Notes: a model not told the origin generated them from the sequence alone. Counted from the first letter of the stretch, positions 6,359-58,340 are shown. The stretch is 64,000 nt of DNA from Mobula hypostoma (GCF_963921235.1 NC_086097.1:35094001-35158000); one strand, 5' to 3'. Numbers and translations: made by a program.

Positions 6359-6431
6359 TGAAGTTGTATAAGACATTGGTGAGGCCTAATTTGGAGTATT
6401 GTGTACAGTTTTGTTCACCCTCCTATAGGAA

Positions 6432-11125: not shown

Positions 11126-12930
11126 CCAACATAGATGACCTCACTAAGGGATTGGATTGTGACTGTGGTGTAGTGACATTTCACCAGCAAATCAGTCAGA
11201 TCAGAACTGAGACAAGATCATAGACCAATGAAGATACTAAATTAGTGTAAGTTGTGTTTTTTTGGTATCTATTATCTTTCAAACAATGAGTTACTTTAAA
11301 ACAGGTAACTCGTTTGAACAGTAAAAGAACTTAAATAATAAGCTCCATAGTGCATTGAATTCAGAATGTCTTCAAAGATTCTTGAGAAGAACACTACCTG
11401 TTAGTCCATTTCATTACAATGCAGCCCAATTAGTGGAGTCTTTAAACTAGAGCCATGTCACAGAAGCAATCCCATTTATTTAGTTACAGTGCCACTGATA
11501 CGCAGGTTATGAATTTGGCCAAGAATAACTGGGAGTATGTCAATTTGTCATAGGTTAATGTTATCCTTGGTCTTCAAAGGAAGGGGTAGATAAAGTTGTG
11601 GAATCCATATGTTTAAATGAGCCTGTTGGTTGTAGGTGCCCTCCCAAGTTCAACAACTTTTAGAGAAATTTATTTAGAGAAATCCACCTAGAAGCTGCTC
11701 AGTAAGTGCTTATTTCTCTGCAGCCAACAGAAATCTTCAGGCCTCTTTATAGCTGCTCAGTAGCTCCCTCTCCATGATATCGCTTTCCCTGACTTGTCTA
11801 GTAGCAATACGTTGGGAGAATCAGCAATGCTGATCTCACCCCACCTTATACAGTCTCTTGGCAACTCCTACCACACACTCAGACAGGGAAGATTCTGGTT
11901 GAAGACATTTAGTGGGGATAGACGCTGCTTCTCCATAATTTGCTCATTTAAACACTTCCTGGATCTGGTGATTTATAATGCTGGACGAAGCAAACAGTAC
12001 TCTGGACTAACAGCATCTGCAGAATCTCCTGTGTTTATGATACTTCTAATTCAGTAATATTAACTTTAAAATAAGTAATTTGGCTTCTTTGTTTGCCATG
12101 GTTGCTTACTGTTGACCAATAGCTTTTCCTCCATCTAGTAAATGGAACTGTTTATTGACTGATTTACCCTCAGAATTAGATATTAAACCTGTTCACTAAG
12201 CTTAACATCAGGTAGTGTTATCTGAGCCATTAGTAATTGCTATGCCCTACATATGGTCATTTTTGAAATTTGAATAATAAAGTTTTTATTCTTTTGTGAG
12301 GCTTGTAAATCAATAGCTCAATAGGTTCAATAGGTACATTTAATGTCAGAGAAATGTATACAATATACATACTGAAATTCTTTTTCAGCCTCATACTGGC
12401 ATTATCAGTTATTTTTATACGTATAGAGAGCTCAAGCAATAGGACACATTGAACGATGAACAAACAAACCAATACAAAGACATTCTTCATGTCTATTGTT
12501 AACATTTTGGCTTTAAAATATAACATCTTTCTTGTAGGTAGATGACCAAAACTGCACACAGTACTCTACCAGAAAAAGTGGGATCTCCCAGTGGCCACCC
12601 ATTTTAATTGCACTTCCCATTCCCATTCTGACACGTCTGTCCATGGCCTCCTCTACAGTCGCGACGGTTGGAGGAACAACACCTTGTATTCCTTCTGGGT
12701 AGCCTTCAACCCGATGACATGAACATCGATTTCTCGAACTTCCAGTAATGGCCCCCCACTTCACCATTCCCCATCCCCTTTTCCCTCTCTCACCTTATCT
12801 CCTTGCCTGCCCATCGCCTCCCTCTGGTGCTCCTCTCCCTTTTTCTTTCTCCATGGCCTTCTGTCCTTACCTATTAGATTCCCCCTTCTCCAGCCCAGTA
12901 TCTCTTTCACCAGTTAACGAATAGGGTTCC

Positions 12931-13542
12931 CTGGTCCTCACCTACCACCCCACCAGCCTCCGGGTCCAACATATTATTCTCCGTAACTTCCGCCACCTCC
13001 AATGGGATCCCACCACTAAGCACATCTTTCCCTCCCCGCCTCTCTCTGCATTCCGCAGGGATCGCTCCCTACACAACTCCCTTGTCCATTCGTCCCCCCC
13101 ATCCCTCCCCACTGATCTCCCTCCTGGCACTTATCCGTGTAAGCGGAACAAGTGCTACACATGCCCTTACACTTCCTCCCTTACCACCATTCAGGGCCCC
13201 AAAAAGTCCTTCCAGGTGAGGCAACACTTCACCTGTGAGTCGACTGGGGTGATATACTGCGTCCGGTGCTCCCGATGTGGCCTTTTATATATTGGCGAGA
13301 CCTGACGCAGACTGGGAGACCGCTTTGCTGAACATCTACGCTCTGTCCGCCAGAGAAAGCAGGATCTCCCAGTGGCCACACATTTTAATTCCACATCCCA
13401 TTCCCATTCTGTCATGTCTATCCACGGCCTCCTCTACTGTAAAGATGAAGCCACACTCAGGTTGGAGGAACAACACCTTATATTCCGTCTGGGTAGCCTG
13501 CAACCTGATGGCATGAACATCGACTTCTCTAACTTCCGCTAA
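12931..13542 (+). pseudogene. PLE ORF C-terminus: linker + Cys motifs + GIY-YIG endonuclease, one internal stop
   Basis: Manual translation: LVLTYHP..YPCKRNKCYTC..FTCESTGVIYCVRCSRCGLLYIGET*RRLGDRFAEH..VATHF..LEEQHLIFRLGSLQPDGMN. TGA at 13303-13305 is a CGA>TGA-type change. Frame not shown in the ORF track. Confidence 0.9.
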
Positions 13543-13836
13543 GGCCCCACCTCCCCCTCGTACCCCATCTGTTACTCATTTTTATGCACACATTCTTTCT
13601 CTCACTCTCCTTTTTCTCCCTCTGTCCCTCTGAATATACCTCTTGCCCATCCTCTGGGTCCCCCCCCCATTGTCTTTCTTCCCGGACCTCCTGTCCCATG
13701 ATCCTCTCGTATCCCCTTTTGCCTATCACCTGTCTAGCTCTTGGCTCTATCCCTCCCCCTCCTGTCTTCTCCTATCATTTTGGATCTCCCCCTCCCCCTC
13801 AAACTTTCAAATCCCTTACTCACTCTTCCTTCAGTT

Positions 13837-13872
13837 AGTCCTGACGAAGGGTCTCGGCCTGAAATGTCGACT
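13837..13872 (+). ncRNA. Minimal type-I hammerhead ribozyme motif in PLE pLTR
   Basis: AGTC-CTGACGA-A-GGGTCTCGGCCT-GAAA-TGTC-GACT. Core intact; two C>T changes at CpG positions. Confidence 0.75.
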
Positions 13873-15289
13873 GCGCCTCTTCCTACAGATGCTGCTTGGC
13901 CTGCTGCATTCACCAGCAACTTTGATGTGTGTTGCTTGAATTTCCAGCATCTGCAGAATTCCTGTTGTTTTCCAGTTAACTTACCAGCTCCCTACTTCAC
14001 CCCTCCCCCTCCCAGTTTCACCCATCACCTTTTGTGCTTCATCCTCCCCTCCACCCCACCTTTTAACTCTACTCCTCATCTTTTCTTCTCCAGTCCTGCC
14101 GAAGGGACACGGCCCGAAACGTCCTGTACTTTTTTTTCCATAGATGCTGCCTGGCCTGCTGAACTCCTCCAGCATTTTGTGCGTGTTTCTTGGATTTCCA
14201 GCAACTGCAGATTTTCTCTTGTTCACAATACTACAAGTTAGGTCTCACCAATATCTTATACAACATCAACATAACGTCCCAACTCCTGTTTTATTTATGA
14301 AGGCCAACGTGCCAAAACTTTTCTTTATAACCCTATCTACCTGTGATGCCACTTTCATGGAATTATGGATCTGTATTCCCAGATCCCTCTGTTCTACTAC
14401 ACTCCTCAGTGTCCTACCAGTCACCGTGTAAGTCCTATCCTGGTTTGTCCTCCCAAAGTGCAAAACTCACACTTGTCTGCATTAAATTCTACCTGCCATT
14501 TTCAGCCCATTTTTCCAGCTGGTCCAGAATACGTTGCAAGCTTGATAGTCTTCATCACTGTACACTACACCCCCGATCTTGGTGTCACCTGCAAATTTGC
14601 TGATCCACTTTGCCACATCATCATCCAGGTTGTTGATATAGAAGACAAACATCACTGGACTCAGCACCAATCCCTACAGCACACCACTAGTCACAGGCCT
14701 CCAGGTCAGAGAGGCAACCATCTACTACCACTCCCTGGCTTCTCCCACAAACCCATTGTCTAATCCAATTTACTACCTCATCTTGAATGCCAAGAAACTG
14801 AATCTTCTTGACCAACCTCCCATGTGGGACATTGTCAAATGCCTTGCTAAAGTCCATATAGACAACATCCACTGCCTTGCCTTCATCAATTTTCCTGGTA
14901 ACTTCCTCGAAAAACTCTAAAAGATTGGTTAGATGTGAACTACCACACTCACAGCCATGCTGACTTACCTAAATCAGTCCCTGTCTAACCAAATACTTAT
15001 ATATCGGGTCCCTTAGATCCGATTATTTTTTAGTTGAACCTGTATTTTAAAAAAGCTTTTTATCAGTGGCTTATAATGCAAAGAAAAACAGTAATTGAAT
15101 TAATACATTAAGTCAAATTCTCTAACCACACTGAGTATTTCCTGCATTTTCTCATTTTATTTTGGAAAATATGTCCACTGCGGACTTTGTGAACATTTAG
15201 TTACATGCTCTCAATGATATTTTTTGGACATAGCAAGTTCAGCAGCCATTTTGATTTAGGAATTGTAAATAATAATGGGAACTGATAGA

Positions 15290-17698: not shown

Positions 17699-17906
17699 TT
17701 GGCAGTAGTACCCGATAGAAATAGAAATATATAGAAATATAGAAAATAGGTGCAGGAGTAGGCCATTCGGCCCTTCGAGCCTGCACTGCAATGCTGTCTC
17801 GCTTGGCAGTAGTACCCGATAGAAATAGAAATATATAGAAATATAGAAAATAGGTGCAGGAGTAGGCCATTCGGCCCTTCGAGCCTGCACTGCAATGCTG
17901 TCTCGC
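17699..17906 (+). repeat. Perfect 2 x 104-bp tandem duplication
   Basis: TTGGCAGTAGTACCCGATAG...GCTGTCTCGC at 17699-17802 and 17803-17906, identical by eye. Contains a short antisense CR1 3' end. Confidence 0.92.
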
Positions 17907-18437
17907 TTAGTGAGTTCCCCCAGCATTTTGTGTGTGTTGCTTGGACTTCCAGCCTCTGCAGATTTTCTCTTGTTTGTGAATTGATTTCTATCTTTTTCCT
18001 TAGCTATCTTGAAACTATTATTTTTTATGATCACTGGTCCCAAAGTGTTCCCCCACTGGCACATCCACCATTTTCTCAGCCTTAATCCCTAAAAGAAGAA
18101 CAGGAAGCTTCATGGACAGATGTGGTCATTTTCACAGGCTGAAACCTGCCCTTTCAAGCTCTCAGATGAAGCCCCATCTCTTGAAAATTGGCTCCTTCAA
18201 GCCATCTGTTATTGAAAATGCCATCTATGCCTTTGTCACCTGTGTGCTTGACACTTACAGTGATTTCCTGGTCAGCCTCCTGCTCTCTATGATCAAAATA
18301 CTAAAGCTCGACTCTTTCATTACTTAGCTGAATACACTTACCATACGTCAAGTGCCCACACACCCATCACCACTCTTCTCACTGACCTACAATAGCTCTC
18401 AATCCCCAATGCCTCCAATTTAAATTTCCACAGTATC

Positions 18438-18660
18438 ACGCACAAAATCGGGGAGGAACTATGCATGTCAGGCAGCATCTATGGAAATGCATTAACTGTC
18501 AACGTTTCGGGCCGAGACCCTTCATCACCAGCCATACCCTTCGATGTTATGGGATGCAAGAGAGGACATCTTGAAAAAGTGCTTCCTGAGTTGCTGCGTT
18601 TTTCCAGCATTTTGTGTGTGTTGCTCTGGACTTCTGGCATCTGCAGACTCTCTTGTGTGG
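18438..18660. mobile_element. Inverted pair of PLE pLTR tails, hammerhead remnant at 18498-18527 (-)
   Basis: GTCAACGTTTCGGGCCGAGACCCTTCATCA followed by a sense tail CCAGCATTTTGTGTGTGTTGCTC..GCATCTGCAGA. Confidence 0.7.
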
Positions 18661-29307: not shown

Positions 29308-29627
29308 TCCTCTGGGTCCCCCCCCCCCACTTTTCCTTCTCCCTGGGCCTCCTGTCCCATGATCCTCTCATATCCCTTTTGCCAATCACCTGTCCAGCTC
29401 TTGGCTCCATCCCTCCCCCTCCTGTCTTCTCCTATCATTTTGGATCTCCCCCTCCCCCTCCCACTTTCAAATCTCTCACCAGCTCTTCTTTCAGTTAGTC
29501 CTGACGAAGGGTCTCGGCCCGAAATGTCGACTGTAGCTCTTCCTAGAGGTGCTGCCTGGCCTGCTGTGTTCACCAGCAACTTTGATGTGTGTTGCCTGAA
29601 ATTCCAGCATCTGCAGAATTCCTTGTG
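29308..29627 (+). mobile_element. Solo PLE pLTR, same family as 13650-13971
   Basis: Near-identical to 13650-13965 and includes a hammerhead. Confidence 0.88.
29497..29532 (+). ncRNA. Minimal hammerhead ribozyme motif
   Basis: AGTC-CTGACGA-A-GGGTCTCGGCCC-GAAA-TGTC-GACT. Confidence 0.78.
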
Positions 29628-30424
29628 TCCACTATGAAGGAGTGCTTTGAGAGGTTGGTGATGTAACATGACAACTCCTGCTTGAGGAGTGACATGGACC
29701 TGCTCCAATTTGCTTTGTGTCATGACAGATCAACAGCAGATGCCAATACATTAGGACTTCACTCAACCCTAGAAAATCTGGATAGTGAGATGCTCTTCAA
29801 TCAGAATGCTCTTCATTGACTACAGCTCTGCATTCAACAATATCATGGCCTCAGAACTAATCAATAAGGCCTTAATTGCTGTTTGTGAAACTAGATCCTT
29901 GATTTTCTTACTTGCAGACACCAGTCAGTTTGGAATGGCAAAAACATCTCCTCCAGAATCACCATCAGCACAGGTGAAGAAGGCTGTATGCATTGCCTCT
30001 TGCTCTACTTGCATTATACTTACGACTGTGACACCATGTACAGCTCCAATGCCATATTTCAGTGTGCTGATGACACCACTGTTGACTGAATCAAAGGTGG
30101 TGACAAATCAGCATATAGGAGGGAGAATGAATATCTGGCGGAATGGTGACACAACAATAATTTCTCACTCAACACCAGCAAAACCAAAGAGCTGATTATT
30201 GACTAGAGGAGTAGGAAACCAGAGGTCCACGAGCCAGTTCTCTTCAGGGGATCAGAGGTGGACAGGGTCAGTGATTGGAGATTCCTTGGCGTTATCATTT
30301 CAGAGAATATGTCCTCGGTCCAGCAAAGGAGGCTCAACAGCAACTTTACTTTCTTAGAAGTTTGCAAAGGTTTGGTATGTTATCTAAAACCTTGACAAAC
30401 TTCTATAGATGCGTGGTGGAGAGT

Positions 30425-34897: not shown

Positions 34898-35344
34898 TAA
34901 GGAGGAATTCCAGATCCGATAGACAAAAAATATAGGAATAAACTTGGCAAGTATTGGCGAGTTTCCTAAGATCAGTGACAGATTTACTGATTTTAATCTG
35001 TAACAAAATGAATTGGTATTTGGAAAAATATGGAGTATTAAATGAAAGTAGATTTCTGAACAGTCCATGAACACTACCTTATTATTCCTTTCTTTTTGCA
35101 CTATTTAGTGTGTGTCGACAAATTGTGTTTGTCAAACTGAAAGATTTCTCTGATGAAGTCATGAAAAAGCTGGGTGTTGGTATTGTGTTTAATGCTGATA
35201 GTTTGGAGTTTATCCAAGTGTTTGACCATATAAACCACAAAGGCATGATCAGCATTAAAGCTATTCCAATTAAAGAAGCAACTGTTGCATGGGTGTGAAA
35301 TTCAGTAAGAGGTAATAGGCAGAAAGTGTTAGGTCAGAAGGGAG

Positions 35345-38067: not shown

Positions 38068-38905
38068 AGTATGTAAGTGGAAGATGGTAGCATAGGATAG
38101 GGAGATATGTGGAAGAATAGATGCATCAGAGAATGTGTATGTGCGGGTGTATGTGTGTAATTAACTTATAGGACATCTGCAGTGCTGGCAACTCTAATTT
38201 TTTGCATATACTGAAATGCCTTATAGGAGGTGGTGGTGAGGCCTGTGCCTGTATTTATCAGAAATATTCTTTTTCCGTAAAAATACTTGAAACCTGTTGC
38301 ATCTTATTTTGTGTAAGTTTTCAGTTTTTGGAAGGCTCTTTAGTGGGAGAGAGGCAATCCACACATATCATTTTCCGTAAGTAAGTCATAAACTATTGTG
38401 CCTCGACGGGAGAAATATCAGTTTATAAAGAAGAGTGGGCACTGCGGCTCGCTGGGCCCACATTGATTATCAAGCATCCATCTTTACAGTAATGCCACCC
38501 TGTTCTAGTGACTCCCTTCAGGTTTGTCTGCTCTTCTAGTTACTCGTGTTTGTTTTACTAACAGAAAGAGTAAAAAAAAGAAATAATGCAGTGCAGTGAA
38601 ATTATCTTCCATATGTCATAATGTCTAAAATTTTGTTAATTCACCAAAGCAAAAGTAAAAGTGGCACATCTATATAAAACTTCAAAAAAAGTTACATGTG
38701 CTATTTTGTAGAAAGTGACAATTTTGTTTCTGTTAGTTATTGGTATGTGGCCTGTTGAAAGGGAGTTTATACAAGAAAATAAAATGGCAGTATGTGAAAG
38801 TCATTTGAGGCTCTTGACAGAAATTGGAATTTTATTTTAACATCTGATTATTTCAATTTGATTCAAATTGAATTTTAATTGAAACTGATTAACAAAATGA
38901 GGTAA

Positions 38906-39040
38906 ACAACAGGAATTCTGCAGATGCTGGAAATTCAAGCAACACACATCAAAGTCGCTGGTGAACGCAGCAGGCCAGGCAGCATCTGTAGGAAGAGGTG
39001 CAGTCGATGTTTCAGGCCGAGACCCTTCGTCAGGACTAAC
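38906..39040 (-). mobile_element. PLE mini-insertion (hammerhead + 3' tail) with TSD
   Basis: Direct repeat TAACAAAATGAGGTAA at 38890-38905 and 39037-39052. Hammerhead at 39002-39037 (reverse complement AGTC-CTGACGA-A-GGGTCTCGGCCT-GAAA-CATC-GACT). Confidence 0.88.
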
Positions 39041-39109
39041 AAAATGAGGTAATAGCTTCCTGGCTGTACATCTCCTGGACCTGAGTTCAATTCCAGGCAC
39101 TTGAGAAAG

Positions 39110-39365
39110 GATCAATGTACAAAGTTAAAGGTAAATTTATTAACAAAGTATGTATATGTCTCCATATACTACTCTGAGATTCATTTTCTTGCAGGCATTC
39201 ACAGTCAAACAAAGAAATGCAGTCAAATGAATGAAAAACTACACATACAACCAATGTTCAAAAGAAGACGAACTACGCAAATACAAAAAAAACAAATAAA
39301 CAGTACTGTGAACATGAATTGTAGAGTCCTTGAAAATGAGTCCATAGGTTGTGGAATCAGTTCCT
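39110..39365 (-). mobile_element. Rex/Babar-type 3' tail fragment
   Basis: AAAGGTAAATTTATTAACAAAGTATGTATATGTC, same tail as 5840 and 40560. Confidence 0.6.
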
Positions 39366-40019
39366 ATGGTTACAGGTTTCCTAGTCTTCAACAGAGTGCA
39401 GCACTGATTAAGAGAATGAGATTCAGATTAAATTGAAAGAATGTCTTTTAGAAACCTGTCTGTTATTCCTTGGTGTTCAGAATCTTAGAAGCTGTTTGGA
39501 ACATTCAGTGGATTTCACAGCAAAGAAACAGTGAAATGATCCCATTTGTTGGATGAAACAATTTGAGAAATCTTGAAATCAGAGTTTGACCATTTTATGA
39601 GTAGAATTTGGATGTATATTTCCATGTAAGTTTTATTGGAAATTTGATAAAGCCTTCCCAAATAGCTAAGGGTGCTGGATCAAACAAATGATCAAGGATG
39701 TGATCCAAAAACTCTGGTTAGTTAAGAAATCACAGGTAGATCACAGGTGTTCTAATGCAGAGCAGACAGAACCTAATTGAACTTGGAACAAGAACTGAAT
39801 GTCCTATTAGCTTGTTGATTATAGAAATTCCCCTTTTGTTATGCAAATTTAAGTTTTAGATAAACAGTTATCTTCATTTTCAAACAACATATATCATGAA
39901 AGGAATGTTCCAGTTTTTCTTTTTCTGAGCAAGTTACTTCCCTTGACGACTCCATTCCATTTTCTAGTTTTTTCCAGCCCCAGTGGTACCTCTTTTGATG
40001 ATATTTTTATGTCAGTACT

Positions 40020-40592
40020 TCACACAACCTGGTACGGAAACACTCATACCCTTGACTGGAAAATCCTACAAAAAGTAGTGGATTCGGTCCAGGCCATCAT
40101 GGGTAAAATGCACATCTACACGGAGCCCTGTCATAGGAAAGCTACATCCATCATCAGGGTTCCTCACCACCCAGGTCATGCTCTCTTCTCACCGCTGCCA
40201 TCAGGAAGAAGGTACAGGAGCCTCAGGACTCACACCACCAGGTTCAGGACTAGTTATTAACCCCTCATCCATCAGGCTCTTGAACCAGTGGGGATAACTT
40301 AACTAATCTTCACTTGTCACATCATTGAACTGTTTTCACAACCTATGGGCTCACTTTCAAGGAGACTTTGTCTCATGTTCTCAATATTTATTTCTTCTTC
40401 TTATTTCTTTCTTTTTGTATTTGCAGTTTGTTGTCTTTTGACCACTGGTTGTTTCTATGCCCTGTTGGGTGTAGTCTTTCGTTGATTTTATAATGGTTTT
40501 TGGATTAGCTGAGTATGCCCAAAAGAAAATGAACCTCAGGGTTATATGTGGTGACATATATGTACTTTGATAATAAATTTACTTTGAACTTT
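40020..40592 (+). mobile_element. Rex/Babar-type LINE 3' fragment
   Basis: WYGN..LQKVVD..HHPGHALFSPLPSGRRYRSL; colinear with 30805-31380. Confidence 0.85.
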
Positions 40593-40599
40593 GATATGG

Positions 40600-41720
40600 C
40601 TCCCTTTTTTCATCTTTAACAATAGATCCATCCTCACGACTACCATTCTTGATAAGACTCTCAACTGCATCTCTGCTTTACTTCCTCTGTTCTCAGCCTT
40701 CCTCCCTCTTCCAGAGAAAGGATAGGGTTCCATTTGTCCAATCCTTCACCCCATAGGTCTTCTTATTGAACAATAATCCCACGTAATTTCTTCTACAGTG
40801 TACTTTCACCACGGTCCTTCCAACACTCACTTCTTCTTCCCATTTAGCATTCTGACAGAATCACTCTCTCTGTGATTCACCTGATACAACTCTAATCAGC
40901 ACCAATGCCCCTCCATATGCCACTATCCCATAAACAGCAGGAGAGGCAACACCTACACTTCAGGTATTTTTTAAAACTATTTATCTTTCCACCATCTAGG
41001 GCACCAAATGTTCCTTCCAGGTGAAGTAGTGAATGACTTGTATTTCTTGTAATTTAACGTAATACATTTGATATTCATGAAGTGGTCTCCTCTACATTGG
41101 AGAAATCAAATGCCGATTGGATGATCACTTTGTAGAGCACCTTCCTTCATTCTGCAAGGGAGATCCTGAGTTTGCAGTAGTCTGTCACTTTAATTTCCTG
41201 TCCTTTTCCACTCTGATGACTCTGTCCTTGGCCTGTTACAATAAAGTCCAAAATAAAAATGAGGAAGAACACCTTCCCTTCTGAATTGGCACAGTATGTT
41301 TCAGCCCTCAGAATTCAACATCAAATTCAGCAATTTCAGATAACCAGCCTTTCCAGTCTGTAACAGAACTGTTACCTGAGCAACTGGGGTTTGCCAGTGT
41401 TCTCTGTCATTTCAGATTCCCAACAAATGCACTCACAGTCCTAACATTGTTTTCCGCTCTCTACTTTACTATTATCTCCCTCCTCAAATATTTCCTCAGC
41501 TGCAATAAACAAGCTGTTACCACTTTCTCTTCACTTGTGTCATTCATTCTCTCCTGACACAGGCATCTCCTTTATTTAGTTACACTGCTCCTTCTCTGCC
41601 AATTGAAACAAGCTTATTTTCTATTTTTCCCTCAATGTGATGAAACATTAACTCAGTCATCTTCTCCATTGATGCTGCCTGGCTTGCAAAGTATTTGTTT
41701 CTGATTCTAATTTCCAGTTT
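40600..41720 (+). mobile_element. Old degraded Penelope-like element (GIY-YIG region + pLTR)
   Basis: Colinear with 12919-13542: GATAGGGTTCC, CCTTCCAGGTGAAG, GGTCTCCTCTACATTGGAGAA (GLLYIGE), GAGGAAGAACACCTT. Confidence 0.75.
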
Positions 41721-43086
41721 GTGTACTTTTGTTTTGCTTTTTTATTCAGTACAACATTGATAGTCATTTTATTAATTTCAATTTTATTAAGTTTACTTTC
41801 TTCAGTTCTAATTATTATATTAAGTGGATTGCAGATGAAGTTAGTATTTATTGCCTATCTCCAGCTATCATAAGAACAGATGAATGGTTTGTTAGGAAAA
41901 TGCAGAAGACTGTTACAAGTCATCCATATTAATTTGGACTCGATGTCTCACTTAAGCCCAGCCAGCAGGTTCCTTCCCTGAAGAACATTAATAAACTTGC
42001 TATGTTTACCCCAAGCTTCATTGTCAGGTTCTAATAGACATCAGTATATTTGCTACTTGTCACTTTCAGAATTTTTATGAAGCATCCTTATTAAATACTC
42101 CAAGTTGAATAATTAGAATTTCAACAAATTATGTTTTAGTTTATATATACACACTGAAATCTGTAACTTAATTAACTTCTTAGATCAAATCTGCTAAAAG
42201 GTTGCAGTTAAAGTGGAAAGACTTTTAATTCTATAGGGGAGTTGCAGTGCAAATCTAGATTTGAGTCATGATGTATTGAATTGGATCTAGACTTCTTCCT
42301 CTTGTGATTTGCCAAGCATCAATGTTACAGATAGGTTGTGACACAGTCTAAATGCTGAATTTGCAATAAAAACAAACCTTTTTGTACACTTTTATTTAAT
42401 ATGTGTATTTTTAAATTTTATAATCCATTCAATTCTGTATTAATGATTCACTTGATTTTCATGCTACTACTCAACAATGATATTAAATGCTCTTTGCAAA
42501 TCCAATTGAATAAGATGGTTTATAAACAGCAGTTTATCTATTTTTGTGATGAAAACTAGATAATTAATTTGCTACAAAATCACACTGGGAAAAAAAAGAA
42601 AACATTTGCTGTCTAGCTGATATACAACAATACCTTGTTTTAAAAAAAGTAAGTTGTGAAAATAATTCTGCTGGTGTGCAATTTCTATTTGGTTCTAGTA
42701 TTTTTTTGACCAGGAGGAAGTGAGTACATGAAGGAAACATTGAACATGACATTTCTATTTATGTTAGCACATACTCGCAGAATTCTTAAAGAATCTCATG
42801 CATCTTTGATTAGAGATCCAGGCTGGTTATACCAATATAAAAAACCTTAGGGAAGTTTCTTTTGTATTACTATAAAAATCAATGATATGACACAGGTGCC
42901 GGTTCAAAATCTAATATGCACATCTATACAGAGAAATGAAACAATTTCAGCAAGTAGTTTCAATTCTCTTTGGTTTTACAAATGACTTGAGCCAAATATA
43001 AAACCACAGAGGTTTCTAATGAGTCTGTCTGGTCGTATTATAGATGTGTATACAGACTCATTAAGTAAAACATATACTGTATATTT

Positions 43087-43186
43087 TAGTCCTGATGAAG
43101 CATCTCGGCCCAAAACGTCGGCTGTTTACTCTTTTCCATAGATGCTGCCTGGCCTGCTGAGTTCCTCCAGCATTGTGTGTGTGTTC
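43087..43186 (+). mobile_element. 100-bp PLE mini-insertion (degenerate hammerhead + tail) with 10-bp TSD
   Basis: TSD CTGTATATTT at 43077-43086 and 43187-43196. Starts TAGTCCTGATGAAG. Confidence 0.85.
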
Positions 43187-44155
43187 CTGTATATTTACAG
43201 TGGGAGTTAGTACTTAGAGTTAAACATGGACTGTTGGGTACATGCGACAATGTTACAAGCCCTCATGAATAGTGATGTAAAATTGTAATGCAGTCTGGTT
43301 CCCTCTGTAAAGAGTTCCAATGAATCAGCTGAGAATTTTCAACAGCTTAATCCACATTAAAAAAAAATATATTCAAGCTTTTCTGGTGGATAGTTCAGTG
43401 GAGGAAGGTCAGACATATTTTCTATTATACTGGTCTGGAGATTGCACTTGAGCTGACCTTCTAGCTCGAATGGCAAAAAATACATAGGTTGTGTTGCAAA
43501 ACTAATTATCAAATAATAAGCAAGACAGCAATTAACATTAACGAGATCTTCATTTCACACCTTCTAGTCCTTGCCTCGCCCTTCACTCCCGTCTCTTTGA
43601 ACTGGTTCTCTCTACTCATGCAACCCCAATGTACAATTTCAACCTGAAGATCAACCATCCCTCTGTCTCCTAATGCTACCTGACCCACCAGGTTTCTTCA
43701 GCAGCTTAGATAATAAGACCATAGGACATAGAAGCAGAATTAGGCCATTCAGCCCCTCGAGTCTGCTCTGCCATTCCATTATGGCTGATTTATTATTCCA
43801 CTCAACCCCATTCTCCTGTCTTCTCCCCATAACCTTTCACACCTAACTTTTGTGTTTTTTGTTTGTTTTTTTCCCCCCTGCTCCAGATCTGTGGTCTCTT
43901 GAGTGCAATAGTATCTGGTTATCAAGATGTCAGTGATTGAAGAGGGGAAAAAAAATCCAAACATTCCAAATTACCAGTTACCTTTGTGGAAAGATATTGC
44001 TCCTTCGTAATGATGATATGTCAATTTAAAAAAGAAATCGATGATCAAAGGTTGTAAGGTATTGGCTGGCTGTTTTCTGGTATTGGACTAAACAGGAATT
44101 TTTGTATCTATCAGCAAAACACTTGGCTCATCAGAATTAAGACTGCATAAAAATC

Positions 44156-44312
44156 TACTACTACTACTTCATCGACTCAGGCCCAGGGGGCCGGCATCAG
44201 GCACGATGACAGACTCTCCACTTCTCCCTCTCCCTCATCTGTGTGTTCAGTTCATCTACATTAGCCGTGCCACTGTCTTCTAGGAGCGTGTTGACCATAG
44301 TCTTGGGAGTCT
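44156..44312 (-). mobile_element. Short LINE 3' end (RTE-like) with 14-bp TSD
   Basis: (TAG)n tail. TSD ACTGCATAAAAATC at 44142-44155 and 44313-44326. Family assignment tentative. Confidence 0.75.
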
Positions 44313-45097
44313 ACTGCATAAAAATCAGTAATAGAATATATTAAGAAAAGTATGTTGTCTGAGGTACTCGGACTGCTTTACTTAGCTGATAATAAAACTT
44401 TGTATAGAGTATAAAAAGGAAACTAATTTGGATTTACTCCCTATTAACAGTGAGCTATACTGTTTGAAAAAGAGTTTTGTTAAGGAGCCAATGGTAAGCA
44501 ACTTATAAATATTTTGCCAATATATGTTATAGATTGCACTATTATATGAGGTAACTTTTCAATATCTAGCCAATTATTTGACCTTGATAGAATCTGATAA
44601 GAGACTACGAGTTCAATGTAAAATCATCATAAGCCCTAAATATGTAATACTTCAGTTGAATTGCAAAGTTGTGGCCAAGCTGAAATTCAAACATGTACAT
44701 GATTGTTCAATCACCAAATCAAATAAAGTTCTGAACTCTTCAACAGGTTTAGCATTATGCTCTTTTTTGAAAGCAACATCCTTTGGGCCATTTTATATCC
44801 TTGGAAGAGAAAGGAAATAGCTGATCTGGTCCACGTTATGTTCTATTCAGATCATCAACCTGCAGTTCTGCTGTGATCAGTTTAAATATGAACATTCTTA
44901 TACAATTTTATAGAAGTTAAGCTTCAGTTATGGTACATAAAACTAGACCACACAATTTTTACACAAATCATTGCACTTACAAAGGGACAGAAAATCAAGT
45001 TAGTGGTTTTACAGCGTGATTGAATCATAAGCACGGAAACAGGCTTTATTAGCTCTTTGTGTCCAGAATGAGCCTCAAACAACCATTCATTTATTCT

Positions 45098-45236
45098 GAA
45101 CACAAAAGATTCTGCAGGTGCTGGAAATCAAGAGCAACACATACAAAATGCTGAAGTGACTTAACAGGTCAGGCAGCATCTATGATGAAGAATAAACAGT
45201 TGAAGTTTCAGTTTGATATCCTTTATCAGGACCTTA
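45098..45236 (-). mobile_element. PLE mini-insertion with decayed hammerhead and 9-bp TSD
   Basis: TSD ATTTATTCT at 45089-45097 and 45237-45245. Homology ends at ..CCTTTATCAGGAC (hammerhead 5' boundary). Confidence 0.7.
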
Positions 45237-45294
45237 ATTTATTCTCCCCACTTTCCTCTCAATTGTCCCCTGATTCCACCACCGGGCAGTCCAT

Positions 45295-49724: not shown

Positions 49725-50719
49725 CTCTATATACTGTCACTGTGATGACATTGTCTTTAGTTTATATGATAATTACATGATCCTTTGAAGCAATTTTTAA
49801 TTTTAAAAATATCACACCCTGCTTGCAATCTCTTAGCGCTTTACCTTCAGGCCTCATTTCACTAACACTCACATAACCTTCTCACCAGCAGCATGCAAAT
49901 GTCACTCCACTCTTTAAGAAGGGAGGAAGGCAAAACAAAAAAGAAATTATAGGCCAGTTAGCCTAACTGCAGTGGCTGGGTAAGTGTTGGAGTTGACTAT
50001 TAAGGATGAGGTTTTGAGGTACTTGGAGACTAATGATAAAATAAGTCAAAGTCAGCATGGTTTCTGTAAAGGGAAATCTTGCCTGATAAATCTGTTAGAG
50101 TTCTTCAAGGAAGCAACAAGCAGAGTGGATAAAGGAGAGGCAGTGGATGTCATTTACTTGAATTTTCAGAAGGTGTTTGATAAGGTGCCTCACATGAGAT
50201 GGCTTAACAAGATAAAATCCTATGGCGTTACAGGAAAGATACTGGCATGAGTAGAGGAATGGCTGACGGGCAGGAGGCAGCAAGTGGGAATAAAGTGGGC
50301 CTTTTCTGGTTGGCTGCCAGTGACTAGTGGTTTTTGTCAGGGGTTAGTATTGGGACCGCTACTTTTCACATTGTTTGTCAATGATTTGGATAGTGGAATT
50401 GGTGGCTTTGTGGCAAACTTTGCAGTTGATACAAAGATAGGTGGAGGGGTAGTTAGTGCTGAGGAAGCAATGCGATTGCGGCAGGACTTAGACAAGTTGG
50501 AAGACTGGACAAAAAAGTGGCAGATGGAATACAGTGTTGGGAAATGTATGATAATGCATTTTGGTAAAAGGAACAATAGTGTGGACTATTAACTAAATGG
50601 CGAGAAGGTTCAAATATCAAAAACTAAACTCAAAATAATCTGCAGATGCTGTTGTCAAAGGAGCACTCACAATGCGCTGGAGGAACTCAGCAGGTCAGTC
50701 AGCATCAGTTGAAAAGATT

Positions 50720-50755
50720 AGTCGACGTTTCGGGCCAAAACCCTTCGTCAGGACT
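50720..50755 (-). ncRNA. Intact minimal type-I hammerhead ribozyme motif
   Basis: Reverse complement AGTC-CTGACGA-A-GGGTTTTGGCCC-GAAA-CGTC-GACT. Confidence 0.85.
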
Positions 50756-51567
50756 GAAGGAAGAACTTTGGGGAGGGTTTGAAGAATGCTGGTAGTTGAA
50801 AAAAACAGTAACTTGAAAGACAAAGGGGTGGGGGACGGGAAGCAGAAAGGTGATTGGCAGGAGAACAATGCGCAGTAGTAGAAGGAGGCGGAACTATGAG
50901 GGAGGTGATGTGAAATAGGGATAGGGGAAGGGAAGGGGAGGGAATTACCGGAAGTTGGAGAATTCCATGTTCATACCAAGGGGCTGGAGACTACCTAGAC
51001 GGTATATGAGGTGTTGCTCCTCCAACCTGAGTTTAGCCTCATCATTGCAGTAGAGGAGGCCATGTATGGACATATATGAATGGGAATGGGAAGCAGAGTT
51101 GAAGTGGGTGGCTACCGGGAGATCCTGTCTGTTGTGGCGCTTATCCCTGTAAGCGTAAGTGCTACACCTGTCCCTACACCTCTTCTCTTGCCAACATTCA
51201 GGCCCCCAAACAGTCCTTCCAGGTGAGGCAACACTTCACTTGAGAGTCTGTTGGGGTCATCCATTGCATCCGGTGCTCCCGGTGTGGCCTCCTCTACATC
51301 GGTGAAACCAGACGCAGATTGGGGGACCACTTCATTGAGCCCCTTGGTATGAACATAGAATTCTCCAGCTTCCGGTAATTCCCTCCCCCTCCCTTCCTCT
51401 ACCTCTATTTCACATCACCTCCCTCATAGTTCCGACTCCTTCTACTACTGCGCATTGTTCTCCTGGCAATCACCTCCCTGCTTCCCCTCCCCCACCCCTT
51501 TGTCTTTCAAGTTACTGTTTTTTTCAACTACCAGCATTCTTCAAACCCTCCCCAAAGTTCTTCCTTC

Positions 51568-51603
51568 AGTCCTGACGAAGGGTTTCGGCCCGAAACGTCG
51601 ACT
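51568..51603 (+). ncRNA. Intact minimal type-I hammerhead ribozyme motif
   Basis: AGTC-CTGACGA-A-GGGT(TTCG)GCCC-GAAA-CGTC-GACT. Predicted GUC cleavage after 51599. Confidence 0.87.
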
Positions 51604-53459
51604 AATCTTTTCAACTGATGCTGACTGACCTGCTGAGTTCCTCCAGCGCATTGTGAGGGTTCAAACATCAGAGGTGCAGAGGGACTTGGGACTTCTCATG
51701 TACGACTCCCAGAAGGTTAATTTACAGGTTGAGTCTGTGGTAAAGAAGTCAAATGCAATGTTGGCATTTATTTCAAGGGGAATAGAATATAAAAGCAAGG
51801 AGATAATGCTGTGGTTTTATAAGACACTAGTTGGTCTGCACTTGGAGCATTGTCATCAGTTTTGGGCCCCATATCTCAGAAAGGACGTGTTATTATTGGA
51901 GAGTCCAGAGGAGGTTCATGAGGATGATTCTGGGAATGAAGGGGTAAATATATGAGAAGCGTTTGGCAGCTCTCGGCCTGTACTCACTGGAATTTAGAAG
52001 AATGCGTGGGGATCTCATTGAAACCTACCGAATGTTGAAAGCACTAGATAGGGTGGATGTGGAGAGGATGTTTCCTGTGGTGGGGAAATCCAGAACTAGA
52101 GGGCACAGCCTCAAAATTGAGGGATGTCCTTTTAGAACAGAGCGAAGGAGGATTTTTTTTTGCCTAAGAGTAGTGAATCTGTGGAATGCTCTGCCACAAG
52201 CTGCGGTGGAGGCCAAGTCCGTGGGTATGTTTATGTGGAAGTTGATTGTTTCCTGATCAGTCAGGGCATCAAAAGATATGGCGAGACGGAAGGTATATGG
52301 GGTTGAGTGGGATCCGGGATCAGCCATGATGGAATGGCGGAACAGACTCAATGGGCTGAATGGCCTAATTCTGCTCCTATATCTTATGGTTTTATGTCAG
52401 TTCATTGTGATTACTAATCTCAGTGTATGATACCAGAAGAAAACTGTATAGAATTTTTAAGAGAGTAAATATGAATTGTAAGGTTATTGTAAAGTCTTAA
52501 GCTGATGTTACTAGACAATCTGAATGAATTGATACCTTGCTGGAAGCTGGATAAATCCCGGAGAGGCAAGAATCTGCAAGGCTACAGAGAGCGAGCAGTG
52601 AAATGGGACTGTCTAGATTTCTCCTAGTTTGAGCTGGTATATAGTGTCAGTGGATGAAACTGTTTCCTTTTCAGTAGCAATTCCATGACTATGACTTTCT
52701 GTAAATTACTGTCAGCTCACTCACAACCTATTTATTGCAGGCAAGCATTAACTGTACAATATTTGGTTATAAATCTTTCATGTTCTCCTGGTATTTCCAC
52801 TATTTGGTTTGATGTACAAACCAAAAATTATAGAGAATACTTATTATTATTGATTTTGGCAGATTTCATAAACAGATGCGGCTTTTGCTTTTTATTTTAG
52901 TTTCTTTATGTAAGAAATGTAATTTCTGAAAAAAAAAATCCAGTGAATCTGTCCATAACTTAAAAAAGGTAGATTTCCAATTCAGGGAAAAATGCCATAG
53001 GTACAATCTGTCTTTCAAGAAAGACATGAAAAAAAATCAAATAATACTTCTTGTTAGTGTTAGTGCAGCTACGGACAGTAAAGTCTGCATGTACAGAAAT
53101 GGAAATGTCTGTGATCATTGATATTCTGTAATCTATGAAGTAAGCTTTGAAGTAAAAACTGGCTTATCAGGTCTCTCAGCTTTGCCTAAAATGTATTTCT
53201 TACTATGAATTTACAGTAGCAATTGTTGATCTTGGGACAGTGCTAATGCTATTTCAGCTAATAACCAGGCCTCACAAATATGATAAGATGTCATACATTT
53301 TGTGTTCCAGCATGGATGTTCTACATTTTACACCAAGCCTGGTTTGATTTCCTGATCTTCTGCATGTTGCTTGCCTTGACTCTGTCTCTCACCTGACTAG
53401 TCAATACCATCTTTAGAACTGAAATCGATGAATCCAGTGTGGAGGATTACAGACCATTG

Positions 53460-57129: not shown

Positions 57130-57224
57130 TCTCTCTCTCTCACTCTCTCTCTCTCTCACTCTCACTCTCACTCTCACTCTCTCACTCTCACTCTCTCTCT
57201 CACTCTCTCTCTCTCTCACTCTCT

Positions 57225-57265
<41 letters not shown>

Positions 57266-58340
57266 TCTCACTCTCTCTCGCACTCTCTCACTCTCTCTCA
57301 CTCTCACTCTCTCACTCTCACTCTCACTCTCACTCTCTCTCACTCTCACTCTCACTCTCTCACTCTCTCTCACTCTCTCTCGCACTCTCTCTCTCACTCT
57401 CTCTCTCACTCTCACTCTCGCTCTCACTCTCTCTATCTCGCACTCTCTCTTTCTCACACTCTCACTCTCACTCTCTCTCACTCTCTCTCGCACTCTCTCT
57501 CACTCTCACTTTCTCTCTCTCCCCCACTCTCTCTCTCACTCTCACTCTCTCTCACTCTCTCTCGCACTCTCTCTCTCTCTCACTCTCTCTCACTCTCTCA
57601 CTCTCACTCTCTCTCTCACTCTCTCTCTCACTCTCTCTCACTCTCTCTCTCACTCTCACTCTCTCTCTCACTCTCTCTCACTCTCACTCTCACTCTCTCT
57701 CACTCTCACTCTCTCTCTCCCACTCTCTCTCTCTCACTCTCACTCTCACTCTCTCTCACTCTCTCTCACTCTCTCTCTCTCCCACTCTCTCTCTCTCACT
57801 CTCACTCTCACTCTCTCTCTCACTCTCTCCCACTCTCACTCTCTCTCTCCCACTCTCTGTCTCTCACTCTCACTCTCTCTCACTCTCTCTCGCACTCTCT
57901 CTCACTCTCACTCTCTCTCTCACTCTCACTTTCTCTCTCCCCCACTCTCTCTCTCACTCTCACTCTCACTCTCTCTCGCACTCTCTCTCTCACTCTCTCT
58001 CACTCTCTCACTCTCACTCTCACTCTCTCTCGCACTCTCTCTCTCACTCTCTCTCACTCTCTCACTCTCTCTCTCACTCTCTCTCTCACTCTCACTCTCA
58101 CTCTCTCTCACTCTCACTCTCTCTCTCTCCCACTCTCTCACTCTCACTCTCACTCTCTCTCACTCTCTCTCGCACTCTCTCTCTCTCACTCTCACTCTCT
58201 CTCTCACTCTCACTCTCACTCTCACTCTCTCTCTCCCACTCTCTCTCTCTCACTCTCACTCTCACTCTCACTCTCTCTCTCTCTCACTCTCTCTCTCACT
58301 CTCTCTCTCTCACTCTCTCTCTCACTCTCTCTCTCTCACT
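57130..58340 (+). repeat. ~1.2-kb compound (CT)n/(CTCTCA)n microsatellite
   Basis: Seen directly: CT runs punctuated by CA, with occasional CG/CC variants. Confidence 0.98.

What the first reader, a model, noticed from the sequence alone, without database searches (positions are those of the whole stretch)
38890..45245. Mini-insertions whose 5' ends coincide with the hammerhead boundary: possible ribozyme-headed non-autonomous retroposon
Seen: three independent TSD-flanked insertions (38906-39040, 43087-43186, 45098-45236), from different subfamilies or ages, consist only of hammerhead plus a 65-100 nt tail. Each starts within ~0-5 nt of helix I, and the 18498-18527 copy also breaks off at the CUGAUGA core. 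The ends are not at the GUC cleavage site. Inference: this is either a truncation/integration hotspot set by the ribozyme fold or a discrete short retrozyme-like RNA mobilised by PLE proteins.
Basis: partly seen in the sequence, partly recalled or inferred. Interest (0 to 1): 0.7.

Follow-up and report, generated by a model that had tools for sequence, protein, structure and literature searches.

The report
Hammerhead-headed short Penelope retrocopies
These are very short dead-end copies of a Penelope-like jumping gene that begin right at its small hammerhead ribozyme motif far more often than chance allows, which suggests that the RNA being copied has a fixed start, or a fixed block, at that spot.

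Summary
All three insertions are real, flanked by target-site duplications of 15, 10 and 9 bp, and start 0-3 nt before helix I of a minimal type-I hammerhead. Of 60 copies anchored on the tail, 25 have a cDNA end at the hammerhead's 5' edge. So do 21 of 100 copies of the youngest subfamily.

They are tail-end retrocopies of a very abundant, recently active Penelope-like element with a GIY-YIG endonuclease. Their 3' ends fall at two sites about 100 and 133 nt downstream. This matches the two internal reverse-transcription start sites and the "tail" described for an Anolis element (PMC11167929).

The 5' edge is not the ribozyme's cleavage site. It coincides with a splice acceptor that is demonstrably used. 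My best reading is run-off cDNAs on RNAs whose 5' end lies there. A roadblock to the reverse transcriptase is the main rival.

For the mini-insertions, a separate SINE-like lineage or a retrozyme (tandem or circular) is not supported. Only one head-to-tail junction exists genome-wide.

Earlier notes of this scan described similar hammerhead-headed repeats on other DNA.

The parts
38906..39037 (-). Mini-insertion 1: hammerhead motif (39037 down to 39002) plus tail, ending at the long 3' site (profile positions 1-133)
   Evidence: nhmmer 1-133, E 3.8e-38
38891..38905 (.). Target-site duplication of mini-insertion 1, left copy (aacaaaatgaggtaa). The right copy is at 39038-39052.
   Evidence: 16-nt exact flank repeat including one base of microhomology
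39038..39052 (.). Target-site duplication of mini-insertion 1, right copy
43087..43186 (+). Mini-insertion 2: one extra T, hammerhead motif 43088-43123 (decayed: AAAA in place of GAAA, helix II broken), and a tail ending at the short 3' site (about position 100)
43077..43086 (.). Target-site duplication of mini-insertion 2 (ctgtatattt). The second copy is at 43187-43196.
43187..43196 (.). Target-site duplication of mini-insertion 2, right copy
45098..45236 (-). Mini-insertion 3 (oldest): three extra nt (45234-45236), hammerhead motif from 45233 downwards (decayed: CUGAUAA), and a tail to the long 3' site
45089..45097 (.). Target-site duplication of mini-insertion 3 (atttattct). The second copy is at 45237-45245.
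45237..45245 (.). Target-site duplication of mini-insertion 3, right copy
18427..18527 (-). Copy that begins at profile position 6 (UGAUGA). It is one arm of an inverted pair with 18572-18658 (+).
12925..13969 (+). Reference long copy of the same young subfamily as mini-insertion 1. It holds the Zn-linker and the GIY-YIG end of the ORF (12925-13539, one in-frame TGA), a 3'UTR (13543-13836) ending in a polypyrimidine tract plus CAG, the hammerhead motif (13837-13872), and a tail to 13969.
29308..29628 (+). Ordinary 5'-truncated copy of the young subfamily. It carries about 189 nt of 3'UTR before the hammerhead motif, whose position 1 is at 29497.

Best explanation
The three insertions are dead-on-arrival by-products of a Penelope-like retroelement (PLE). 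They are not a separate element.

Proposed mechanism: the element's protein nicks the target, which gives 9-15 bp duplications. It starts reverse transcription inside the RNA, at one of two fixed sites about 100 and 133 nt downstream of the hammerhead's first base. The cDNA then runs off the 5' end of an RNA that begins 0-4 nt upstream of helix I.

Such an RNA could be:
- a transcript started by the pLTR's own initiator-type promoter; or
- an RNA trimmed back to the protein-bound or folded hammerhead-to-start-site core.

Any copy that keeps the upstream 3'UTR, and the 5' pLTR of a full-length element, could supply such an RNA. The minis then arise whenever the enzyme engages the start site nearest the RNA's 5' end.

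Shown here: the ends, the duplications, the peak at the hammerhead's 5' edge, the two 3' sites, and the PLE parentage.

Inferred: that the peak is an RNA 5' end, and how that end is made.
For: Peak of 5' ends at the hammerhead's first base:
- 25 of 60 tail-anchored copies have a cDNA end at -3..+3 (my reading of the printed sequences). These are 8 simple ends, 7 forward arms abutting an inverted arm, 9 inverted arms and 1 direct junction.
- An automated check of the forward arms alone gives 14 of 60 at -7..+7.
- 21 of 100 young-family copies end at -7..+1.
- 4 of 19 copies that carry the 5'UTR have their upstream repeat starting at -10..+2.
- 5' ends elsewhere are spread thinly: 4 of 60 at -60..-10, and 4 of 100 at -13..-45.

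Clean target duplications abut the boundary:
- AATTAATGAGCTTG in L117.
- GACAAATTGTGCAAG in L069.
- TTACGTATTTA in L123.

PLE parentage:
- The long copies continue upstream into a roughly 300-nt 3'UTR and a GIY-YIG ORF end. Pfam scores the GIY-YIG match at 22.7 bits against a cut-off of 22.6.
- In copies with the longest frames, the sequence runs 3'UTR, hammerhead, tail, about 40 nt, then ATG.

The 3' ends are bimodal:
- Anchored set: 23 of 60 at profile positions 96-112 and 34 of 60 at 128-134.
- Young set: 21 of 40 and 14 of 40.

Published support, from PMC11167929 (I read parts 1-2 of the main text):
- An Anolis PLE starts reverse transcription at two adjacent internal sites downstream of its hammerhead, and the 30-40 bp 'tail' lies between them.
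- Hammerhead cleavage is not needed.
- Shortening the RNA's 5' end shortened the product, so the enzyme runs to the RNA's 5' end in vitro.
- RNA-seq coverage is raised at the pLTR-ORF junction.

From PMC2377424 (passages): Drosophila Penelope has an internal TATA-less Inr/DPE promoter in the pLTR.

The bases around position 1 are YY-A-G-T-C-C in nearly all long copies. This fits the initiator consensus as I recall it.

Minis occur in all three spacer variants of the young family and in older families. That is expected of by-products.
Against: - No RNA data. No run on record as RNA holds the stretch, and the contigs laid show no starts or ends.
- Most 5'UTR-bearing copies have an upstream repeat that extends beyond position 1. 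That is 10 of 19, plus 2 of 3. So many template RNAs start further upstream, and position 1 is not the only start.
- The extra bases at the junctions (T, TAA, GAT, AAA) are not the extra G often seen at capped ends.
- In the young family many ends lie at -2/-1, which is the first base after a used splice acceptor. This fits a roadblock by acceptor-bound factors as well as it fits a start site.
- The initiator match lies in a pyrimidine-rich stretch and could be fortuitous.
Confidence: 0.5

Rival explanations
1. The reverse transcriptase is blocked at this point rather than running off an RNA end. The template would be unspliced nuclear RNA that carries splicing factors, or the element's own protein, on the polypyrimidine tract and acceptor AG just upstream of helix I. 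The cDNA then ends at the first bases of the exon.
For: - The acceptor is real. Two TSD-flanked arrays join ...CAGCCAT to TTAGTCC.... The parent sequences read CAT|GTATCC at the donor and TTCAG|TTAGTCC at the acceptor, an exact GT..AG junction.
- Many young-family ends are TT|AGTCC, which is the exon's first base.
- The share of cDNAs ending there is similar whether they began about 100 nt away or about 3.8 kb away: 21-41% against 4 of 14. A position-specific stop would predict this.
- PLEs are known to retain introns (PMC2377424 and PMC8557442, passages).
Against: - In vitro, the Anolis enzyme copied templates through the hammerhead to 5' ends 126-145 nt upstream without a reported dominant stop (PMC11167929).
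- In older families the ends are at AGTCC or GTCC. That is inside the presumed acceptor AG or before it, not after it.
- Folding predicts no strong RNA structure upstream: z-scores are -0.8 and +0.4.
- I know of no precedent for such a block.
Confidence: 0.25
2. The minis are a self-propagating SINE-like family: a short RNA with its own internal promoter, headed by the ribozyme and mobilised in trans by PLE proteins.
For: - The ends are discrete and the copy number is high. About 9 of 66 module hits in 264 kb are simple minis.
- The minis share the 3' end that the PLE enzyme uses.
Against: - Minis carry the same variants as the long copies of each subfamily instead of diagnostic changes of their own.
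- They lack the upstream 3'UTR, where PLE promoters are thought to lie.
- By eye, I found no A/B-box-like pair.
- A TTTT run inside the tail of one family would stop Pol III.
- Only 20-40% of the copies that reach the motif end there. The rest continue upstream into PLE sequence.
Confidence: 0.08
3. The minis are retrozyme-type elements. Hammerhead self-cleavage and ligation would give a small circular RNA, which is then copied by rolling circle.
For: - Each unit holds a hammerhead motif.
- Animal non-LTR retrozymes are reported to derive from PLE pLTRs (preprint 10.64898/2026.07.22.740005: abstract, Results and Discussion read).
- A rare 310-nt tandem derivative exists in this genome.
Against: - The insertions are single units with ends at position 1 and at about 100 or 133, not permuted around the cleavage site at 32/33.
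- The head-to-tail junction (tail end, 0-8 nt, then position 1) occurs once in the genome.
- The window holds no such tandem.
- A single minimal hammerhead needs a partner to cleave (PMC4209133, passages).
- 13 of 42 copies have C at core position A6.
Confidence: 0.04
4. The boundary is an artefact. It would be either a chance set of ordinary 5' truncations, a border of homology between families that share only the hammerhead-plus-tail module, or solo repeats left by recombination between two pLTRs.
For: - Upstream 3'UTRs differ between subfamilies.
- Half of the simple-ended copies lack an exact duplication of 8 nt or more.
Against: - Target duplications abut the boundary in 11 of 22 simple-ended copies, against 1.3% of controls.
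- The peak appears within one 98%-identical family.
- The upstream repeats of 5'UTR-bearing copies start at many positions, from beyond -200 to after +60. Recombination between them would not give a fixed start.
Confidence: 0.04

Closest known systems
Insertion units of canonical endonuclease-bearing Penelope-like elements (Penelope/Poseidon/Neptune type): 5'-truncated copies, pseudo-LTRs, an adjacent inverted copy, and a 30-40 bp 'tail' (PMC8557442 passages; PMC11167929 main text parts 1-2)
   Same: - GIY-YIG ORF end.
- Hammerhead in the repeat.
- Heavy 5' truncation.
- Inverted arms.
- Two 3' end sites about 33 nt apart.
- Target duplications of 9-15 bp.
   Different: - In this family a fifth to two fifths of the copies that reach the hammerhead stop within a few bases of its 5' edge. 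I found no report of such a fixed 5' end.
- The start codon lies about 170 nt downstream of the hammerhead, not inside it as in the Anolis element.
Minimal type-I hammerheads of metazoan PLEs (Cervera and de la Pena 2014, PMC4209133, passages)
   Same: - A core CUGAUGA...GAAA followed by GUC.
- A helix III reduced to a palindromic ACGU/GUCGAC stretch.
- A GC-rich helix II and a short helix I.
- Mostly found as dispersed single motifs, ascribed to truncated PLEs.
   Different: Nothing about the motif itself differs. The paper does not say where the truncated copies begin.
Animal non-LTR retrozymes (review PMC7761336, passages; preprint 10.64898/2026.07.22.740005)
   Same: Short, non-coding, hammerhead-bearing, PLE-derived, and presumably copied by PLE enzymes.
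   Different: - Retrozymes are head-to-tail tandem repeats thought to pass through circular RNA.
- The minis are single, TSD-flanked, linear units with fixed ends.
- Only the rare 310-nt arrays at two other loci resemble retrozymes.
HDV-like ribozymes at the 5' end of R2, L1Tc and other LINEs (PMC7761336, passage)
   Same: The 5' end of the mobile RNA coincides with the 5' edge of a ribozyme.
   Different: An HDV-like ribozyme cuts at its own 5' edge, so it creates that end. A type-I hammerhead cuts near its 3' edge (position 32/33 here), so it cannot create the end seen here.

Membership tests
Penelope-like element (endonuclease-bearing) | C-terminal GIY-YIG endonuclease domain in the single ORF | tested here: met
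   P0001 (window:12925-13539, with the one TGA read as X) matches PF01541 at 22.7 bits, cut-off 22.6, E 1.3e-4. The two halves scanned apart gave nothing. A CX..C linker lies before the domain.
Penelope-like element (endonuclease-bearing) | Telomerase-like reverse transcriptase domain | not tested
   I did not fetch the RT part of the long frames. These frames reach 1043 aa in 3 of 150 scored matches. The RT fragments in the window (2764-3447, 6900-8040, 59090-62976) are LINE-type.
Penelope-like element (endonuclease-bearing) | Pseudo-LTR: a partial upstream tandem copy of the 3' end, of variable length | tested here: met
   Copies that carry the 5'UTR are preceded by 3'UTR-hammerhead-tail sequence starting anywhere from beyond -200 to after +60.
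Penelope-like element (endonuclease-bearing) | Optional 30-40 bp 'tail', reflecting two internal RT start sites | tested here: met
   3' ends are bimodal at about 100-112 and 128-133. The tail piece is found inverted at the 5' end in L021 (copy at 2008) and in L040.
Penelope-like element (endonuclease-bearing) | Adjacent inverted 5'-truncated copy | tested here: met
   21 of 60 anchored copies and 20 of the 40 fetched young copies have inverted junctions.
Minimal type-I hammerhead ribozyme | Conserved core (CUGAUGA, GAAA, cleavage triplet NUH) with helices I and II | tested here: met
   Measured in 42 copies:
- Core positions are 76-100% conserved, except N7 and A6 (C in 13 of 42).
- Helix I pairs form in 30-42 of 42 copies and helix II pairs in 36-40 of 42.
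- Variation is mostly CpG decay, with little covariation.
Among the three minis, only the copy at 38906 keeps the core.
Minimal type-I hammerhead ribozyme | Match to the curated Rfam hammerhead models | tested here: not met
   0 hits at gathering score and 0 hammerhead hits at E up to 10. This is expected for a motif without a helix III stem-loop.
Minimal type-I hammerhead ribozyme | Self-cleavage | not testable with these tools
   Needs a transcription and cleavage assay, probably with dimeric constructs.
Non-LTR retrozyme | Head-to-tail tandem repeats of the hammerhead-bearing unit | tested here: not met
   The junction of tail end, 0-8 nt, then position 1 has 1 match genome-wide. No such tandem lies in the window. 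The 310-nt arrays at two other loci do meet this feature.
Non-LTR retrozyme | Circular RNA intermediate | not testable with these tools
   No RNA run on record.
SINE-like non-autonomous retroposon | Own source lineage (diagnostic changes shared by the short copies only) | tested here: inconclusive
   The minis carry the spacer variants of the long copies, and I saw no mini-only changes. No tree was built because the sequences are short.

The most novel reading that the evidence does not exclude
The hammerhead sits at the head of an exon, and that exon (hammerhead plus RT start sites) is the smallest mobilisable module of this PLE.

A splice acceptor 2 nt upstream of helix I is joined to a donor about 125 nt into the ORF. 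This gives a 310-nt unit that was inserted at least twice as a TSD-flanked multimer. The simplest explanation is rolling-circle copying of a back-spliced circular RNA.

This would be a concrete route by which retrozyme-like tandem repeats are born from Penelope-like elements.

The same exon start would be the fixed 5' end of the mini-insertions.
Probability: 0.2. Interest if true: 0.75.

Novelty: new member of a known kind. Interest (0 to 1): 0.42.

Why it matters
Reviews still call the role of hammerheads in Penelope-like elements unknown (PMC7761336, passage).

Here a fifth to two fifths of the insertions that reach the motif end exactly at its 5' edge. This holds in a family with tens of thousands of near-identical copies. 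The edge is also a used splice acceptor.

This gives a precise, testable landmark:
- One 5'-end mapping experiment would tell whether the element makes a short hammerhead-headed RNA, whether that RNA is the preferred template, and whether the motif protects or marks that end.
- It also explains simply why dispersed single minimal hammerheads are so common in such genomes.

For genome annotation, these 100-135 bp units should be filed as PLE tails, not as a new SINE.

Tried and rejected
- Rfam at gathering score and at E up to 10: no hammerhead or other ribozyme hit.
- RNA evidence: no RNA holder is listed.
- Read laying on window:12925-14000 with X1, X2, X9 and X13: contigs only, kind uncertain, no table of starts or ends, and no joint at the hammerhead boundary. 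This is uninformative.
- DNA search of the genome with the 63-nt tail: nothing, because very common words are skipped.
I then used short stretches of 231-271 nt.
- The RT ORF at 6900-8040 (-) next to a tail fragment proved to be a LINE, not the PLE.
- Pfam on the two ORF halves separately: nothing.
- PDB sequence search with P0001: nothing.
- Raw 25-mer counts across the boundary are not comparable, because of CpG decay and variants: 25,638 at -32..-8, 43,480 at -14..+11 and 43,857 at +1..+25. I used them only to pick places.
- A guessed small intron in the 3'UTR (donor GTATCC at about -128): the spliced-form 30-mer has 0 matches.
- Solo-pLTR recombination: rejected because upstream repeats start at many positions.
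- Cleavage-defined ends: 3-4 of 60 forward arms end at positions 26-38, which is no more than the background.
- Folding of -80..+139 and of +1..+139: no significant structure.
- The paper by Lunse et al. 2017 is not held.
- Searches of our own notes by place and by sequence: nothing.


Full report
**1. The observation**

The window is part of a 3.48-Gb genome in 200 contigs.

| Insertion | Strand | Flanking repeat | Repeat coordinates | Note |
|---|---|---|---|---|
| 38906-39037 | - | aacaaaatgaggtaa | 38891-38905 and 39038-39052 | |
| 43087-43186 | + | ctgtatattt | 43077-43086 and 43187-43196 | one extra T before AGTCC |
| 45098-45236 | - | atttattct | 45089-45097 and 45237-45245 | three extra nt before GGTCC |

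An automatic search finds exact flank repeats of 16, 10 and 9 nt.

Read on the strand of the motif, each insertion has this layout:
- AGUC, or GGUC in one copy.
- CUGAYGA.
- A GC-rich hairpin.
- GAAAC.
- GUC, AUC or UUC.
- GACU-like bases that pair with the first four.
- A tail.

This is the minimal type-I hammerhead of Penelope-like elements (PLEs), with helix III reduced to a palindrome (PMC4209133, passages). Rfam does not find it.

Across 42 copies from my samples:
- The core is conserved.
- Helix I pairs form in 30-42 of 42 copies and helix II pairs in 36-40 of 42.
- The variation is mostly CpG decay, so covariation adds little.
- 13 of 42 copies have C at the core position A6.

Of the three minis, only the copy at 38906 keeps an intact core.

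**2. What the repeat is**

A profile of the 134-nt hammerhead-plus-tail module finds 66 hits in 264 kb, namely the window plus 20 random 10-kb regions. That is one hit per 4 kb. As a rough extrapolation, this is several hundred thousand copies in the genome.

In long copies the module is preceded by a pyrimidine-rich 3'UTR of about 300 nt. Before that comes the end of an ORF with a CX..C linker and a GIY-YIG endonuclease domain.

The 126-aa piece before the domain has 134,093 first-look candidates in the genome. All 150 scored matches are 95-100% identical. Three of them lie in open frames of 1043 aa. The family is therefore huge and young.

In copies that carry the start of the ORF, the order is 3'UTR, hammerhead, tail, about 40 nt, then ATG. 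The hammerhead therefore lies in the pseudo-LTR, about 170 nt before the start codon.

Only 417 places in the genome hold the tail-to-5'UTR junction. About 43,900 hold the young family's hammerhead 25-mer. This is the heavy 5' truncation known for PLEs (PMC8557442, passages).

**3. The 3' ends**

The 3' ends fall into two groups.

| Set | Positions 96-112 | Positions 128-134 |
|---|---|---|
| Anchored copies (n = 60) | 23 | 34 |
| Fetched young copies (n = 40) | 21 | 14 |

The roughly 30-nt piece between the two sites sometimes sits inverted at the other end of the insertion. Examples are the copy in L021 at 2008 and L040.

This matches what Frangieh et al. showed for an Anolis PLE (PMC11167929, main text parts 1-2 read):
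- Reverse transcription starts at two adjacent internal sites downstream of the hammerhead.
- The 30-40 bp 'tail' is the stretch between them.
- Both DNA strands are cut and extended.
- Hammerhead cleavage is not required.

**4.

I call the first base of helix I position 1.

(a) Unbiased 264 kb.
- By all-against-all comparison, 12 of 58 mapped copies have their 5' limit at -8..+6.
- The other limits spread from +10 to +99 and from -10 to beyond -460. Eight hits could not be mapped.

(b) Tail-anchored sample.
- A 46-nt tail core (positions 49-94) has 3,688 exact matches and none for the reversed control.
- I fetched 245 nt around the first 60 places listed and read them:

| Class | Copies |
|---|---|
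| Continue upstream for at least 60 nt | 19 |
| Stop at -60..-10 | 4 |
| Stop at -3..+3 against unrelated DNA | 8 |
| Simple end at 4-12 | 4 |
| Simple end further in | 3 |
| Forward copy starts at about 1, next to an inverted arm | 7 |
| Inverted arm itself ends at 1-3 | 9 |
| Direct junction of a tail end to position 1 | 1 |
| Symmetric hairpin with axis at 22-36 (helix II and the helix III palindrome) | 5 |

- So 25 of 60 have a cDNA end at the boundary.
- An automatic check of the forward arms alone puts 14 of 60 at -7..+7.

(c) Young family.
- Of the first 100 places of the 25-mer at +1..+25, 60 also have the exact 25-mer at -14..+11.
- I fetched the other 40:

| Class | Copies |
|---|---|
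| Continue upstream with point changes | 9 |
| Stop at -13..-45 | 4 |
| Simple end at -7..+1 | 7 |
| Forward arm starts at -2..+1, against an inverted arm | 14 |
| Palindromic junction at -5..-9 | 6 |

- Three pairs among these 40 are the two arms of one locus.
- So 21 of 100 end at the boundary, or 27 if the palindromic junctions are counted.

(d) Copies with the 5'UTR.
- In 19 fetched copies the upstream repeat starts as follows:

| Start of the upstream repeat | Copies |
|---|---|
| -10..+2 | 4 |
| -60..-146 | 4 |
| Beyond -200 | 6 |
| After +60 | 5 |

- Three more copies start at about -150, about -340 and +53.

(e) Target duplications.
- An exact flank repeat of 8 nt or more occurs in 11 of 22 simple-ended copies, against 1.3% of 4,400 pairings of flanks from different copies.

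The peak is real, sharp and present in old and young families. Positions 26-38, around the cleavage site at 32/33, hold 3-4 of 60 forward-arm ends. That is no more than the background.

**5. What sets the boundary**

The hammerhead cannot cut there, because a type-I motif cuts near its 3' edge. A polymerase stalled by the fold would stop at the fold's 3' side, not after passing it.

Three readings remain.

(i) An RNA 5' end.
- The pLTR of Drosophila Penelope holds an internal TATA-less Inr/DPE promoter (PMC2377424, passages).
- Here the bases around position 1 are YY-A-G-T-C-C in nearly all long copies. This fits the initiator consensus as I recall it.
- The ends scatter over -4..+2, as start sites do.
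- The Anolis enzyme runs to the end of shortened templates (PMC11167929).
- Every copy that keeps the 3'UTR, and the 5' pLTR of a full element, could then make an RNA that begins at the hammerhead and contains an internal start site for the enzyme. Copying from the start site nearest the 5' end gives a 100- or 133-nt run-off product.
- Trimming by a 5'-to-3' exonuclease up to a folded or protein-bound core would give the same end.

(ii) A roadblock.
- The stretch just upstream is a polypyrimidine tract ending in CAG (young family) or CCAG.
- That acceptor is used (section 6).

(iii) Artefacts. These are excluded by the duplications and by the peak within one family.

I favour (i) at about 0.5 and give (ii) about 0.25.

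Points against (i):
- I have no RNA evidence.
- In most 5'UTR-bearing copies the upstream repeat runs past position 1. Position 1 is therefore at most one of several RNA starts.

**6. A used splice acceptor, and rare tandem arrays**

Four of the tail-to-5'UTR junctions listed lie 310 nt apart on contig C2. The locus (L154 and L155) reads as follows:
- Flank ...TTATCTAATTTT.
- A partial unit (position 76 to about +305).
- Three units (from -2 to about +305).
- A last unit (from -2 to about 100).
- TTATCTAATTTT again.

This is one insertion event that brought in a multimer.

A second locus on C50 (L159) has its own duplication (about TCAGAAACT). It holds a short partial unit, one full unit, and a last unit ending at position 133.

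The unit junction ...CAGCCAT|TTAGTCC... occurs six times in the genome, only at these two loci. In three long copies the donor side continues CAGCCAT|GTATCC (L156-L158). The acceptor side reads TTCAG|TTAGTCC. The skipped part therefore begins with GT and ends with AG.

This is a splice junction. The donor lies about 125 nt into the ORF and the acceptor lies 2 nt before helix I.

The multimers could come from:
- rolling-circle copying of a back-spliced 310-nt circle;
- a spliced transcript of tandem elements; or
- a master array.

I cannot tell which.

The acceptor next to the hammerhead recalls Drosophila Penelope, whose hammerhead adjoins the 3' end of its intron (PMC4209133, figure legend).

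A smaller intron that I guessed in the 3'UTR is not supported (0 matches).

**7. Comparison with known kinds, and verdict**

The three insertions are members of a known kind: tail-end copies of a PLE carrying the known minimal hammerhead.

They are not retrozymes:
- They are single units.
- There is one head-to-tail junction genome-wide.
- There is no such tandem in the window.

They do not show a lineage of their own. The same spacer variants occur in minis and in long copies.

As far as my searches show (Lunse et al. 2017 could not be read), two things are new. One is the fixed 5' end at the hammerhead's edge. The other is its coincidence with a used acceptor.

Earlier notes of this scan on other genomes described a minimal hammerhead 'at the head of a very abundant short repeat' and fold-back PLE tails in shark-type DNA. 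They agree with this report but did not measure the boundary.

Noticed in passing
L154+L155 (G000:C2:157816100-157817800, - strand) and L159 (G000:C50:58412100-58413050): TSD-flanked tandem arrays of a 310-nt unit: hammerhead, tail, 5'UTR and the first roughly 125 nt of the ORF. The unit junction is an exact GT..AG splice junction, with the acceptor 2 nt upstream of helix I. The junction occurs at only these two loci in the genome (6 junctions).
   Followed up: partly
Samples L029-L088 and window copies such as 14092-14230: A large subfamily has CUGCYGA instead of CUGAUGA (C at the invariant A6; 13 of 42 copies), yet it has many copies. If the usual rules hold, cleavage is dispensable for spread.
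   Followed up: no
L027 (copy at 5068), L113, L119, and similar in L112: The same fold-back junction recurs at independent loci: an inverted arm ending ...GAGACCCTTCGTT joined to AGTCC.... This suggests either a templated snap-back at the cDNA end or copying of a hairpin-shaped source.
   Followed up: no
window 50624-50758 (-) and 51565-51655 (+): Two copies lie head to head and share about 230 nt of identical upstream sequence (96% over 320 nt). This is an inverted pair with tails pointing outwards.
   Followed up: partly
window 17699-17908: A perfect two-copy tandem of a 104-nt unit (100% match) directly precedes a tail fragment at 17895-17974.
   Followed up: no
window 35186-35261 (- strand): A hairpin resembles the mir-155 precursor (27.8 bits, E 0.2, below Rfam's gathering score of 56). 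The 5' arm starts UUAAUGCUGAUC.
   Followed up: no
window 2764-3447 (+), 6900-8040 (-), 59090-62976 (+), 57130-58337: LINE fragments lie at 2764-3447, 6900-8040 and 59090-62976. They hold reverse transcriptase, and the last also holds an AP-type endonuclease. A 1.2-kb (TC)n-type simple repeat lies at 57130-58337. At 6291-6360, a PLE tail fragment is fused to LINE RT-like sequence.
   Followed up: partly
window 13825-13860 versus 13789-13824: The summed contig depth of four public runs rises 3- to 15-fold at the hammerhead's first base (table 2). This is in line with the extra copies that start there, but such depths are not a reliable measure.
   Followed up: no
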